Notes under the pieces: generated by a model
Databases searched by the model: none
Told to the model about the DNA's origin: nothing
The model's input: the letters and a program-made list of their open reading frames with translations, nothing else
Source of the DNA: Saccostrea cucullata
Lineage: Eukaryota
NCBI RefSeq assembly: GCF_032062105.1
Contig: NW_026921433.1
Coordinates: 62,001 to 126,000, forward strand
Direction: 5' to 3'
Length of the DNA stretch: 64,000 nucleotides
Made by a program: the position numbers and the translations under genes
Part shown: one piece after another, positions 28,759 through 37,975 of the stretch
Position numbering within the stretch: position 1 is the first letter of the stretch
Layout: every line of letters starts with the position of its first letter

Positions 28759-30492
28759 ATGTCTGACTGTGGGGATATGGGCGATTGCGACTGTGATTGC
28801 GGCGATGGTTGCGACTGCGATTGCGGGGACGATTGCTGTAAATTTGACGATGACTGCTGTGATTGCGGTTGCTTCATTTGCGGCGACGACGGGTGTTGCG
28901 GGGGTAACGATGGGTGTTGCGGGGACGATCATGTTCATGGTAACGATATATAGTGTGACTGTGCAACTTTTAGAGTTAATTTTCTTAAAGAAAGACTTGA
29001 ATAATGTTGTACATTCAAATTAGTTATTGAGACAGTTGTATTAAACTCAACATTACATTAACCAATGGAAAAGATTAAAATAACAATCAGTGTCGATCGC
29101 TTGAAAAATATAAACAATACAAAATTGTAAAGAGTGGCTCAAACACGGAGCCTGGGAAGTTCCAGAGCAGGGACCAGGCTCCGGGGAATAAACCTTATAG
29201 ATGATCTTATTCTTGACCTCAGTCTCATTTTTCCACTATGCGAGTAACTTTTATAAAAGTGATACTGGAATAAAAAAACATGAGCTCGTCTGATTTATAT
29301 GATCCCGGGGCCAGGCGTCTAGAAGAAGTGAACTTCTCCCGTTGACCAGTCTCACCCGCCGTGAACCCTAAGTATAGACTGGGTAGACTGTACATTCGAT
29401 AGTCAAATATAATATAAATTCACCGTTTACTGTATTAATAAGGTTAAATCAAAAGCAAAGTTCAAGATTTTTTCAAAACCCATACTATAAATTGTACATG
29501 GCTAATCATTTATTAACAACTTCTTAATTAAGGTAATTATTTCGGTAAAGGAGGGTGAAAACGGTTAGCAGGAGATGCTCACTCCTTCATGGCAACTGAT
29601 CCTACCTCTGACGTTTTGGAGCTCCGTGTTTGGTCCACTTCTATTTTGTAATGGTTAATAGAGCTCGAATACTCTTTGTTATCTCCACATCTTTCATTAA
29701 TGAAAAAGGAATTGAAAATCAATAGATATTTGTCTAATAAGCAATATAAGACCTCATCAAAATATTCTCCATTCCAGGTAATCATGATAATATCAGTGTG
29801 GACGGCCATAGACATGGGGGAGGTACGTTGAGGCATACTAAGAGTTTTATACTCACATTGGCTATAATTACAATTTTAAAACTTCTAATAATTCATATCG
29901 AAATTATGTTACGATAAAATAGTTGCAGAATATACTGAATATAAAAAAATTATATTTTAATATGCAACATTATTCATATCTCAATTTATGTTATGATATT
30001 ATTTGAAATGCTAAATATTATATATTAATTTTTCCTTTAATATAACATGTTACAGATATGCTTTTCCTTTTTTAAAAAATGATAAATTATCAATTTTTCC
30101 TTTTAAGGATGTATCTGGTGTATATGTTTTCCTTTTATTAAGGGTGTAACTGGTGTATATGTTTTTGTTTTTTTTCCTTTTAAGGATGTAACTGCAGCTG
30201 GTGTATATGTTTCCTAATAACGGAAGATGACGACTGTTGTGGCAGTGAAGAACGACGAAGACGAAGAAATCAGAGGAGATACGAATTGGAACGCAGACGT
30301 CAGATGGAGGTCGAAGGACAAAACCTTCCGAGTGAAACCGATGGCGTAAACCCCGCGAATGTGGAAACGTCACAATTATCAGGGACTGAGAATAGTCCAC
30401 CAGCAGCGATAACAACACAACCACCATCTTATGACGAGGTTGTACATGTGACACTATCGTTACGTCACAGCCTGTTCAGCACGATATTTTGA
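28759..30492 (+). CDS. Cys/Asp-rich PPxY protein, copy 1 (177 aa as assembled)
   Basis: Exons 28759-28939, 29778-29822, 30185-30492; GT-AG introns, both phase 1; 18 Cys and 19 Asp in the first 60 aa; CSWCICFL; PPAAITTQPPSYDEV; structure conserved with copy 2. Confidence 0.8.
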
Positions 30493-30869
30493 ATAACAGG
30501 TCTATGCACCATGAAACTTCTTTTTGAAATTAAGGAGGAAGAGGACTCCTCGGATCTAAAAGTGTTCAGAATTTCTATTTTTATGAAAAGAAAAAAATGC
30601 CTGACATGTGTTCCAATTCATATTCAGTGCGACAGACAAGCCATTTTTGTGGAATATCTTAGCCGATGTGTGCTCGGTGATGTTTCTACGGTTTTACGAG
30701 GTATAACGCGTTAAAGTGTACAATGTCATGTATGATGATCATGAGCGTTGCATATTTAATTTTTACTGACGTGTTTTCTTGTTTGTAGTTTTAAATAACA
30801 GACTAGCTTGAGGAATATAACGTGTAAATGTACATATAAAGACTACATTAGCTAGTATCGGCGACTGGT

Positions 30870-31540
30870 ATCGTGGAATCGTGAAGAGAATCGTCAAGAG
30901 AAATGATCTTCATCACAGTCCAATCGCTCCCGCCTGTGTCGAACAGTCAGAAGCACTCGAACACGTGCCCATTTCGAGTTGAGATTTGCATTGTGAAAAG
31001 CCGGTTCCGTTTCGTCTGAGTGGTCACATTCACCCCCGAGGCGTTCAGGGGGTCATTACGTAGGTTGGCTGCTGTCCAGAAGGGATAGCGTCGTGCCCTG
31101 AAGAGTCACAAAATGGTTTTGGCGTTGTGTTGTTGACCTCTAAAGACCACCCTAATGTCCATGTGCTGCTGTACCAAAAGTTTGTTGTCGGTTCCAGGCC
31201 CTGTTCACAACGATCTGGCCGACGTTTAGTGCAACGTCACGTTGTGAATAGCCTAGCCAGAGTCAAGCATTCCAATGCATTTGCCCAGTTGTCCTGTCGT
31301 CAGGCGACGCCTTACAAGTTGAGGAGGCATTTGTTGATAAACTTAGTGTAAACACTCAAGTGAGTTTGAAACTTTAGAATCAGACGCCGATGCCTGAGTG
31401 AAAATCGTGCAATGGAAGCAAAAGCATTAAATGTGATGAGAAACACATTTCCCTTGGCAAGTGCAAGTTTTGTTGAAGACGATTTTGATTTAACTTAGAC
31501 ACAATGTTGCTAGTTATGCTGTTAATATTTTTTTTTAACA
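30870..31540 (-). mobile_element. Tc1-type transposon remnant (N-terminal transposase)
   Basis: From ATG at 31330: MPPQLVRRRLTTGQLGKCIGMLDSG..SQRDVA..VVNRAWNRQQTFG..STTQRQNHF..NASGVNVTTQTKRNRL..LTVRHRRERLD, with stops and frameshifts. Confidence 0.75.
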
Positions 31541-35702: not shown

Positions 35703-36942
35703 CATTACGCTACAGATCCCGTAATGCTGTTGGGCAGAATTTCTCCACTTTTCAGCATTGGTGAATGCATCTAACTCTCATTCCCGAATTTTAAACTGAC
35801 TTTTTCGCATCAGAGAGTGAAAATATCAATTTTATTAGTCTGTAATAGTACAAATGACATTTTTGATTTGAATAAACATTAACATAATTACACCTTTTCA
35901 CCCTTTTTAATGACATGATTTCATAACGCATTTAATTTTCCTTGTAAATGTGATAAACTGCGCAGTATATGTATCTGTATGTGTCTGTTGATGAACAAGT
36001 ATGAACCGCCTCTTGCATAAAGAAAAAAGTACGTTTCAATACAAATCTTGCCCTTTATTTTTCTAAAATATGGAAACGATCTAAAACAATTCATAGCATC
36101 CTTTCTTAATTATTGAAATTGTTTGCAGTAAAACCATACAAATCATTTTCTTTAAATGACTTCTTAAAATATTGCTGTGATGTCATTCCTTTGTTCTCGC
36201 AGTCTAAAATTTTACCTGTGGCAGTCCGATATTAGTGAGCAGTCTGATATTAATTGTAATATCAGACTGTCTCAGTAATGATATCCTTCATAATTGGACT
36301 GCTACTGAACAAAAGAAAAAAAAGTGTGATTATTTAACATACAGCAATTTTAATTCCTTACATAGAATGATGATTAGGAAACACTGATCTTACAAAATTT
36401 CAAGACTAAAAAAAATTAAACTTTCAATTACATCAAATATACAGGAAGAAGAACAATTGTAACATTATATTTTCATATTTGTCATCCTTCATGCCATATT
36501 CTTTATTGATTTATTATATTCATCTACTTATTAAAGCCAATTTCATAATTTTTTAAGAACATAACATTTTAGGGCACAATCAAGCCAAAACCGTGCCTTC
36601 TTCTTTCATTGGTTAAATCTGCCGTCTAATCTAAATGGCCGGTCTTAAAAATACAGTTTTCTGATAAAGATATGCACACTTGAATGTAACGAAAGCAAAT
36701 ATCGGTGTCACTGAGCACTCCCTTCCCTGAGCGTGGCCTGTAAACAGATTGGAACTAAAATTCCTTGGATTACTAAGGAAGAAGGAAATACCCATAAAAA
36801 GTCCAATCTCTGAACGATATCTATATATAGGGTGTTTATAAATACGAAAAGATTTCTTTTTGGCTCCTCTTTATCACAGTTTTAAGTTCGTGCTAATACC
36901 AGGAACGTCTTTGCGTTCTGTGCACTTCAGTTTCAAGTAGCC

Positions 36943-37975
36943 ATGTCTGACTGTGACTTTGGTGACTGTGATTGTGATGGGTATTGTTGCGAATGTGGTG
37001 ACTGTGATTGTTGCCGATGTGATGAAGATTTTTGCGAATGTTGTGACATTGATTGTATTGAGAGTTGCTTTACTTGCTGTCATTGTCTACATGCGTGTGG
37101 CGAATGTTGCAGAGGGAATGAACGATGCTGCGGTGACAATTCAGTTCGATATGGTAAAAAGAGGTCTAATTTAAAAAAAAACAACTTTTTATTATACATT
37201 GAACAAATTCTTAACTGATTGAGTTTATCATTTTTATCTTACAAATTGTTCTGAATAAGTGTTCAATAACTTAACAGATTGGTGGAATCCGAGATAACTA
37301 ATCTGAATTTATCTAAGGCAATAATTCAGATTTGAGTCTATCAAGATTTCAGTTGAGGTCAGATCAACCACTTACCTTCTCAAGGAATTATAGGAACTGC
37401 TGAACATCGGCATAAAGAAATTAAAATACTAGTATACTTTTGAAATTATTCTCCATTTCAGATGTGAGTGTTGAAGGCAGTACAGAGGAAAGAGGTATGT
37501 TTTTATTTCAATTTTAATTTAATAGAGTTTCATATTATATGATATACATGCATGTGTTAATCAACCATATCAATTTTGACCTTGTCAGAAAATAACATTG
37601 ACAAACGATATTTAATTCTTATTAGGATGCAACTGGTGTATTTGTTTCTTGGTTGGGGATAGTTACAGTGCAAGACATCAAAGACCCCAGAGGAGTTACG
37701 AACTGGATCGGAGTCGTCAAATTGAAGTTCAAATGCAACCAAACTCGAGGAGCCTTCCTTGTGCCGCCAATGGTGTAAATCCGGCGCATCCTGCACCTAA
37801 TACTACACGCAAGAAACGTACCGCTGAAGATGAGGAATCAGACACGCCACAACAAACAGACAATGAAGACGACAGTCCACCAGCAGTGATCACAGCTCAG
37901 CCGCCATCTTATGACGAGGTTATACACGGGGACGCTAAACAAAGAGACACAGTTATTACAGCACAACCTGTATAG
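36943..37975 (+). CDS. Cys/Asp-rich PPxY protein, copy 2 (197 aa)
   Basis: Exons 36943-37153, 37462-37494, 37626-37975 (594 nt, open); phase-1 GT-AG introns; 23 Cys in the first 70 aa; GCNWCICFL; PPAVITAQPPSYDEV; ends TVITAQPV. Confidence 0.85.

What the first reader, a model, noticed from the sequence alone, without database searches (positions are those of the whole stretch)
28759..37975. Tandem pair of unrecognised genes: acidic metallothionein-like domain fused to a Cys/hydrophobic segment and a PPxY tail
Seen: two 3-exon genes with identical intron phases and a conserved acceptor (TTCTCCATTYCAG). Their N-termini are about 30% Cys with CxC/CC motifs but are Asp/Glu-rich. Both have WCICFL, a charged YEL(E/D)RxRQ(M/I)EV segment, GVNPA and SPPA(V/A)IT(A/T)QPPSYDEV. 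Established: classical mollusc metallothioneins are short, Lys-rich and lack such tails; PPxY binds WW domains of NEDD4-family E3 ligases; Cys clusters next to hydrophobic residues are common palmitoylation sites. Inference: a membrane-tethered metal- or redox-binding adaptor coupled to ubiquitination or endolysosomal sorting. I do not recognise this architecture.
Basis: partly seen in the sequence, partly recalled or inferred. Interest (0 to 1): 0.75.

Follow-up and report, generated by a model that had tools for sequence, protein, structure and literature searches.

The report
Unnamed bivalve cysteine-rich PPxY protein family
Two neighbouring rock-oyster genes belong to an unnamed oyster-and-mussel protein family that joins a variable acidic, cysteine-rich head to an invariant PPxY tail; they likely act as lipid-anchored, possibly metal-binding adaptors for NEDD4-type ubiquitin ligases, a role that is inferred and untested.

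Summary
Observation confirmed. Gene A (177 aa) and gene B (197 aa) have GT-AG, phase-1 introns and every motif listed. Both introns of A are seen spliced in RNA runs. B equals a RefSeq model of Saccostrea cucullata. A versus B shows purifying selection (dN 0.31, dS about 1.8). They belong to an unnamed family found in Saccostrea, Ostrea, Magallana/Crassostrea and Mytilus, with no significant Pfam, PDB or Atlas match. The family keeps three ordered modules: an acidic Cys/Asp/Gly head (12-28 Cys, spacing not conserved), a 9-residue Cys-aromatic cluster, and an invariant QPP[ST]Y[DE]E motif, followed by a second TxQP in 11 of 12. It is not a metallothionein, CYSTM, LITAF, Shisa-like protein or keratin-associated protein by the features tested. 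There is no transmembrane helix or signal peptide. Best reading (0.42): a disordered, S-acylated, Lys-poor PY adaptor for NEDD4-family ligases whose head may bind metal. No functional step is shown, and the single metal-response element is at chance level. Corrections: A probably has an upstream non-coding exon, and its last residues are frameshifted in this copy. Interest 0.45.

The parts
28759..28939 (+). Gene A coding exon 1: acidic Cys/Asp/Gly head (18 Cys in 60 aa)
   Evidence: covered by RNA contigs and reads; RefSeq XP_062598518.1 = P0009
29778..29822 (+). Gene A coding exon 2 (45 nt, His/Asp/Gly linker); an alternative donor 6 nt later in exon 1 explains the 179-aa RefSeq isoform
   Evidence: joints; isoforms P0008/P0009; alternative donor inferred from the sequence
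30185..30492 (+). Gene A coding exon 3: Cys-aromatic cluster 30187-30240, Arg-rich helix 30253-30312, PPxY block 30409-30441, frameshifted end
30095..30212 (+). Three tandem copies of gene A's exon-3 acceptor region; only the third (30185) is open, and it is the only one listed as used in RNA
30450..30476 (+). The family's second TxQP motif, out of frame in this copy of gene A (one base fewer than the copy on another scaffold, P0004)
   Evidence: site too thinly covered by RNA to test
30493..31580 (+). Probable 3' UTR of gene A
   Evidence: patchy RNA contig and read cover to about 31580
23565..23646 (+). Candidate non-coding first exon of gene A (TATA-like box at 23546, strong donor at 23647, no ATG), joining an acceptor that ends at 28752
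   Evidence: sequence; an X4 contig leaves the laid stretch at 28754 with 82 letters unplaced; not tested directly
24300..28675 (-). LINE retrotransposon (ORF1-like 27590-28675, endonuclease 27035-27562, reverse transcriptase 24753-27071) that would lie antisense in gene A's 5' UTR intron; left end approximate
36943..37153 (+). Gene B coding exon 1: acidic Cys head (23 Cys in 70 aa)
   Evidence: identical to RefSeq XP_062598520.1
37462..37494 (+). Gene B coding exon 2 (33 nt); the matching segment is missing from the S. echinata orthologue model
37626..37975 (+). Gene B coding exon 3: Cys-aromatic cluster 37628-37654, predicted helix 37697-37729, PPxY block 37889-37921, second TxQP 37955-37972

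Best explanation
Genes A and B are spliced tandem paralogues of an unnamed bivalve family whose products are predicted to be disordered cytosolic proteins, likely anchored to a membrane by S-acylation of a central Cys-aromatic cluster, likely recruiting a NEDD4-family ubiquitin ligase through an invariant C-terminal PPxY, and possibly binding Zn/Cd/Cu in an acidic Cys-rich head. Shown: the genes, splicing of A, purifying selection, the family's range, the three modules in fixed order, no signal peptide or membrane-length hydrophobic stretch, few lysines. Inferred: acylation, WW binding, an adaptor rather than substrate role, and metal binding by a loose poly-thiolate head rather than a fixed MT cluster. 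In this model the protein would bring the ligase to membrane cargo, as CYSTM/CYSPD, LITAF and Shisa-type PY proteins do, and metal or oxidation of the head could tune that.
For: Q, P, P, Y and E of the PY block are invariant in 12 of 12 rows, one PY motif per protein, while the preceding linker varies 50-88 residues. The block has pN 0.07 versus pS 0.37 between A and B over 18 codons. Oyster and mussel post-head regions recognise each other's HMMs above all shuffles in 12 of 12 comparisons (13-35 bits; about 1000 shuffles each). The central cluster keeps 3-6 Cys in 20 residues beside aromatic and aliphatic residues in 12 of 12, but the best 19-residue hydropathy is only -0.03 to 0.93, so it cannot span a membrane. 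A precedent exists: yeast CYSTM/CYSPD proteins are held on membranes by palmitoylation, not a helix; one has a PPxY and interacted with Rsp5 in a screen (PMC10840359, abstract and passages). Lys is scarce: 0-6 per protein versus 4-14 Arg, and 0 after the head in 6 of 12. AlphaFold gives no fold apart from one helix, 105-117 (pLDDT 41 and 44).
Against: No biochemical or localisation data. In A-type proteins the cluster is followed directly by acidic residues, and the Arg run that could help membrane binding is weak in gene B (4 basic in 12) and in the mussel proteins (2-3 in 12). Acylated Cys cannot chelate metal, so the model needs a division of labour between head and cluster that is not shown. 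No P[ST]AP ESCRT motif in 0 of 12, and no cargo is known. Low Lys could be a by-product of low-complexity composition; no proteome baseline was computed. Low AlphaFold confidence on 6- and 12-row alignments does not prove disorder. PPxY also binds non-ligase WW proteins (recalled).
Confidence: 0.42

Rival explanations
1. A soluble, non-canonical metal chelator: the acidic Cys head buffers Zn, Cd or Cu as a metallothionein does, and the PPxY tail is a degron or sorting tag for the protein itself.
For: Head is 20-37% Cys with CxC and CC motifs, the composition given for MTs (PMC7826182 passages). A non-MT Cys-rich region can confer Cd tolerance, as in rice DEP1 (PMC3808331 abstract and passages). 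The loose beta1 and beta3 patterns fit 2 of 12 proteins (both Ostrea; 25 and 3 of 2000 shuffles do). The listed Pacific oyster MT also starts MSD.
Against: 0 of 12 fit a strict domain pattern, and neither window protein fits even the loose ones. Cys number is 12, 18, 23, 27 in the Saccostrea proteins, and 9 versus 12 within the Magallana cluster. RNA contigs of X2 show a Cys-to-Tyr change and a 6-nt deletion in the head. Net charge of the head is -12 to -24. One MRE core lies before B, none before A; the window has 9 against 15.6 expected. A degron needs lysines, and the Magallana protein has none.
Confidence: 0.25
2. A structural, cross-linked cytosolic protein, like keratin-associated or cornified-envelope proteins: the Cys head forms disulphides and the Gln of the TxQP motifs could be transglutaminase sites.
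For: RefSeq names three records 'keratin-associated protein 5-6-like'. The head is low-complexity and varies in length. A similar VTxQP motif is recalled from PLAC8/cornifelin N-termini (recalled, not tested).
Against: No Pfam family of that kind matched, so the name looks compositional. Expression is low in the runs laid (about 1-2 reads deep on exons in X15), unlike a bulk structural protein, though tissue is unknown. It does not explain an invariant PPxY.
Confidence: 0.13
3. A nuclear or cytosolic WW-domain partner outside the ligase pathway (for example YAP/Yorkie or WWOX), using the Arg run as a nuclear signal and the acidic head as an activation region.
For: A-type oyster proteins have 6-8 basic residues in 12 followed by a predicted helix. 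The head is strongly acidic. PPxY partners outside the NEDD4 family are recalled.
Against: The Arg run is absent in mussel members and weak in gene B while the Cys-aromatic cluster and PY block are kept. It leaves the Cys cluster unexplained.
Confidence: 0.1

Closest known systems
CYSTM/CYSPD proteins (yeast Cpp1-3, Ydl012c; plant CDT1)
   Same: Small, no signal peptide, short Cys cluster beside hydrophobic residues that is not a true membrane span; a PPxY and an Rsp5 link in one member; links to metal tolerance (PMC10840359, abstract and passages).
   Different: Order is reversed: CYSTM has a Pro/Gly-rich N-region and a C-terminal Cys module. Here the Cys cluster is central, the PY is C-terminal and a 12-28 Cys acidic head is added. 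No Pfam match.
LITAF/CDIP1
   Same: Monotopic PY adaptor of ITCH/NEDD4 ligases that uses Cys-bound zinc (PMC5095921, passages).
   Different: No LITAF domain, no 22-residue hydrophobic insert, no P[ST]AP; the PY is C-terminal, not N-terminal.
Shisa and Shisa-like PY adaptors (also the TMEM51, TMEM52 and MLANA tails)
   Same: Same order: N-terminal Cys-rich region, Cys cluster, basic residues, C-terminal PY (PMC10531659, passages). Weak leads: MLANA E 0.032 and TMEM51 E 0.1, each in 1 of 12 members; TMEM52 at 0.77 in the Atlas.
   Different: No signal peptide and no transmembrane helix, so the Cys-rich region would be cytosolic and reduced, not a luminal disulphide domain.
Mollusc metallothioneins (alpha, beta1-3, gamma domains)
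   Same: Cys content and CxC/CC motifs of the head; MSD start.
   Different: 141-199 aa, acidic and Lys-poor, Cys number and spacing not conserved, long non-Cys tail; the PY motif is absent from the one supplementary table of the mollusc MT catalogue held.
Keratin-associated protein 5 (RefSeq automatic name)
   Same: Low-complexity Cys/Gly richness.
   Different: No Pfam support; acidic; carries conserved non-Cys motifs. The name appears to be compositional.

Membership tests
Mollusc metallothionein | Mostly under 100 aa and Cys-rich throughout | tested here: not met
   141-199 aa; 0-1 Cys beyond the central cluster
Mollusc metallothionein | About 15-30% Cys in CxC/CC motifs | tested here: met
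   head 20-37% Cys, whole window proteins 14%
Mollusc metallothionein | Cys spacing of an alpha, beta1, beta2, beta2-like, beta3 or gamma domain | tested here: not met
   strict 0 of 12; loose 2 of 12 (Ostrea only), neither window protein; the delta pattern was not seen in the passages and was not tested
Mollusc metallothionein | Metal-response elements and metal induction | tested here: inconclusive
   one core at 36673; 9 in the window against 15.6 expected; no exposure data seen
Mollusc metallothionein | Metal-thiolate clusters of set stoichiometry | not testable with these tools
   needs recombinant protein
CYSTM/CYSPD | C-terminal 5-6 Cys module after a Pro/Gly-rich N-region; Pfam match | tested here: not met
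   cluster is central and the C-terminus has no Cys; no match
CYSTM/CYSPD | Membrane binding by palmitoylation | not testable with these tools
   no consensus exists
LITAF/CDIP1 | C-terminal LITAF domain with a 22-residue hydrophobic stretch between zinc-binding Cys motifs | tested here: not met
   hydrophobic stretch about 9 residues; no Pfam match
LITAF/CDIP1 | N-terminal PPxY plus P[ST]AP | tested here: not met
   one C-terminal PY; P[ST]AP in 0 of 12
Shisa/Shisa-like | Signal peptide and one transmembrane helix | tested here: not met
   acidic N-terminus; best 19-residue hydropathy 0.93 or less in 12 of 12; no dedicated predictor was run
Shisa/Shisa-like | N-terminal Cys-rich region and C-terminal PY motif | tested here: met
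   12 of 12
Keratin-associated protein 5 | Match to a keratin-associated Pfam model | tested here: not met
   none at E up to 10, though HMMER's filters drop most matches above 0.1

The most novel reading that the evidence does not exclude
A ubiquitin-addressed metal carrier: an expandable acidic poly-cysteine head loads Zn, Cd or Cu, and a lipid anchor with a PPxY tail routes the loaded protein, or metal transporters beside it, through NEDD4 and ESCRT into lysosomes or granules. That would put chelation and disposal in one small protein and offer a route to the high metal loads of oysters.
Probability: 0.15. Interest if true: 0.8.

Novelty: new variant of a known kind. Interest (0 to 1): 0.45.

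Why it matters
The family is kept under selection from oysters to mussels, has duplicated separately in Saccostrea and Ostrea, and has no name or profile; RefSeq labels some members as keratin-associated proteins. If the adaptor reading holds, it is a PY adaptor built in an order not matched by CYSTM, LITAF or Shisa, with a possible metal-sensing head. It would be an easily tested candidate link between metal load and membrane-protein turnover in animals used as metal sentinels (that use is recalled). If it proves to be only a chelator, it adds an acidic, tailed class missing from the mollusc MT catalogue.

Tried and rejected
No own genome is held, so other paralogues in this assembly were not searched. 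Pfam: nothing for exons or whole proteins, apart from weak single-member hits. PDB: one chance hit at E 4.9. ESM Atlas: nothing at 0.9 or above. A profile of four Saccostrea exon-3 rows against 1.84 billion representatives gave 3 hits, all Ostreidae; it missed the Magallana and Mytilus members found later at E 0.1-8.7, so more distant relatives can have been missed too. Metagenome scan: 21 pattern matches, 0 confirmed. AlphaFold twice: pLDDT 41 and 44, so no fold search was run. Gene A's other two exon-3 acceptors give early stops and no RNA joint was listed for them. MRE enrichment rejected. No similarity between the upstream regions of A and B. A membrane helix was rejected. Earlier scan notes: none. 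Literature: 0 papers for 12 locus tags or accessions and 0 for a six-term description; main texts only. One oyster paper was not held and another's supplement could not be read, so expression data in supplements may exist. No complex was predicted: no oyster WW domain was at hand, and a PY-WW pair would pass by likeness.
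Full report
Observation. Gene A is 28759-28939, 29778-29822, 30185-30492 (177 aa); gene B is 36943-37153, 37462-37494, 37626-37975 (197 aa). All four introns are GT-AG and phase 1. Each listed motif occurs twice in the window's six frames, once per gene, and the shared acceptor only at 29765 and 37449. Exon 1 is 30% and 33% Cys, 32% and 26% acidic, with 1 and 0 Lys. 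A and B match at E 1e-19 in exon 3 and show dN 0.31 against dS about 1.8 over 148 codons; in the 18-codon PY block pN is 0.07 and pS 0.37. Outside the exons little is alignable: 19 nt at the intron-1 acceptor and a weak 95-nt stretch in intron 2.

Expression. Of 24 runs listed, 4 were laid on gene A only (28680-31780). Intron 1 is skipped in two X2 contigs (one with variant letters at the joint). Intron 2 is skipped in X2 and in 3 raw reads of X15, using the third of three tandem acceptor copies; the other two give early stops. X1 showed no coding-exon cover. X2 and X4 are RNA by guess only, but the joints are GT-AG. Exon depth in X15 is about 1-2. Gene A equals XP_062598518.1.

Corrections. 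Contigs of X2 and X4 run on upstream of A's start with letters not in the laid stretch. An acceptor ends at 28752, and a candidate ATG-free exon lies at about 23565-23646 behind a TATA-like box; a LINE would sit antisense in that intron. This is untested. After the PY block this copy of A is one base short against the copy on another scaffold (P0004) and against S. echinata, so the second TxQP motif is out of frame. RNA depth there was too low to tell allele from error. The S. echinata B model lacks the exon-2 segment.

Family. Searches gave S. echinata orthologues of A and B, a second S. cucullata copy of A, and three Ostrea edulis proteins with consecutive accessions. At E 0.1-8.7 the six-row profile added four proteins whose clusters are Magallana gigas LOC105327259 / C. 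angulata LOC128157717, Mytilus galloprovincialis, M. coruscus and one unnamed record. These weak hits were tested: HMMs of the post-head regions of three groups scored the other groups at 13-35 bits, above every shuffle in 12 of 12 comparisons (two proteins per group, about 1000 shuffles each). The sets were picked by the same motifs, so this confirms ordered similarity rather than proving descent. Independent support for the Magallana member is its neighbour: a UniRef model fuses it to a GPCR helix 55% identical to the GPCR at 20905-21018 of this window. In a tree of 13 post-head regions the B genes of the two Saccostrea species group (100/99), the five Saccostrea proteins group (95/96) and the Ostrea triplet is separate (88/93), so the tandem copies arose separately in the two genera. 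The range beyond Ostreidae and Mytilidae is open: the full-library search found only 3 Ostreidae representatives and missed the members above.

Anatomy. Three modules keep their order in 12 of 12 aligned proteins. (1) Head: 51-94 aa, 12-28 Cys, 22-32% acidic, net charge -12 to -24, Cys spacing different even between orthologues; 9 versus 12 Cys within the Magallana cluster (1 of 8 members has 9); a Cys-to-Tyr change and a 6-nt deletion in X2 contigs. (2) Central cluster: 3-6 Cys in 20 residues beside aromatic and aliphatic residues; about 9 hydrophobic residues, best 19-residue hydropathy 0.93 or less. In oysters an Arg-rich stretch follows, the only helix AlphaFold places (105-117; mean pLDDT 41 and 44); mussels lack it. 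(3) Tail: invariant QPP[ST]Y[DE]E, 9-27 residues from the end, with a second TxQP in 11 of 12. Lys is 0-6 per protein against 4-14 Arg; no proteome baseline was computed.

Mechanism. What selection keeps is the PY block and the Cys-aromatic cluster, while the head changes length freely. That fits a linear-motif adaptor better than a folded metal cluster. I commit to a cytosolic, disordered protein, S-acylated at the central Cys, that recruits a NEDD4-family ligase to membrane cargo, with a head that may bind Zn, Cd or Cu loosely (0.42). Precedents: CYSTM/CYSPD proteins are anchored by palmitate and tied to Rsp5 (PMC10840359; abstract and passages); LITAF is a zinc-binding monotopic PY adaptor (PMC5095921; passages); Shisa proteins have the same module order but with a signal peptide and a membrane helix (PMC10531659; passages). 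Against: no functional data, no acylation consensus, acidic residues next to the cluster, no P[ST]AP, and acylated Cys cannot bind metal. Rivals: a soluble non-canonical chelator (0.25; rice DEP1 shows a non-MT Cys region can give Cd tolerance, PMC3808331, passages), a cross-linked structural protein (0.13), a nuclear WW partner (0.10).

Membership. Metallothionein: length and Cys spacing fail (strict 0 of 12; loose 2 of 12, both Ostrea, reached by 25 and 3 of 2000 shuffles; patterns from PMC7826182 passages). The PY motif is absent from that paper's one held supplementary table. One MRE core precedes B, but the window has 9 against 15.6 expected. CYSTM, LITAF, Shisa-like and keratin-associated protein 5 each fail a defining feature. 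Weak tail hits to MLANA, TMEM51 and TMEM52 are leads only.

Novelty. The genes are annotated in RefSeq as uncharacterised or keratin-associated-like. No main text in the library names any of 12 identifiers, and a descriptive search found 0 papers; some searches gave listings in which no title or abstract start describes this family. Supplements and subscription papers were not covered. The scan's earlier notes hold nothing. Verdict: real, conserved, unnamed family; a new arrangement of known parts with an inferred mechanism. Interest 0.45; 0.8 if it proves to couple metal loading to ubiquitin-directed sorting (probability 0.15).

Noticed in passing
window 19939-21165 (+) and about 17704-17952 (+): Single-exon rhodopsin-family GPCR (7tm_1, E 1e-25) with a partial upstream copy of its 5' end. 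A Magallana gigas gene model (P0017) fuses a helix of the matching GPCR to the family ORF, which points to the same neighbour there and probably a mis-joined model.
   Followed up: partly
window 24300-28675 (-): LINE with ORF1-like frame, endonuclease and reverse transcriptase in separate frames, ending about 80 bp before gene A's start codon; probably inside A's 5' UTR intron.
   Followed up: partly
window 30095-30212 (+): Gene A's exon-3 acceptor plus the Cys-aromatic codons are triplicated; the two upstream copies would give truncated proteins ending soon after the cluster, without the PY tail. No RNA joint was listed for them.
   Followed up: partly
window 36673-36679 and 36837-36844 (+): One MRE core 164 bp before a TATA-like box upstream of gene B; at chance level for the window.
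   Followed up: yes
window 6041-11038 (+): Frames that read like a decayed LTR retrotransposon (gag-, integrase- and RT-like pieces, by eye); 7789-9126 is shared in inverted form with 58665-59972.
   Followed up: no
window 47147-63178 (+): Scattered exons that read like ankyrin repeats (by eye), with a 48-nt duplication at 54903-54998 and another LINE-like element at 60385-62164 (-).
   Followed up: no
window 42627-46564: Satellite of 49-bp units, about 80 copies, 94% matches.
   Followed up: no
window 32574-33206; 33408-33940 with 35196-35702: Between the two genes: a 168-bp tandem array (3.8 copies) and a 530-bp inverted pair at 82%, likely transposon remnants.
   Followed up: no
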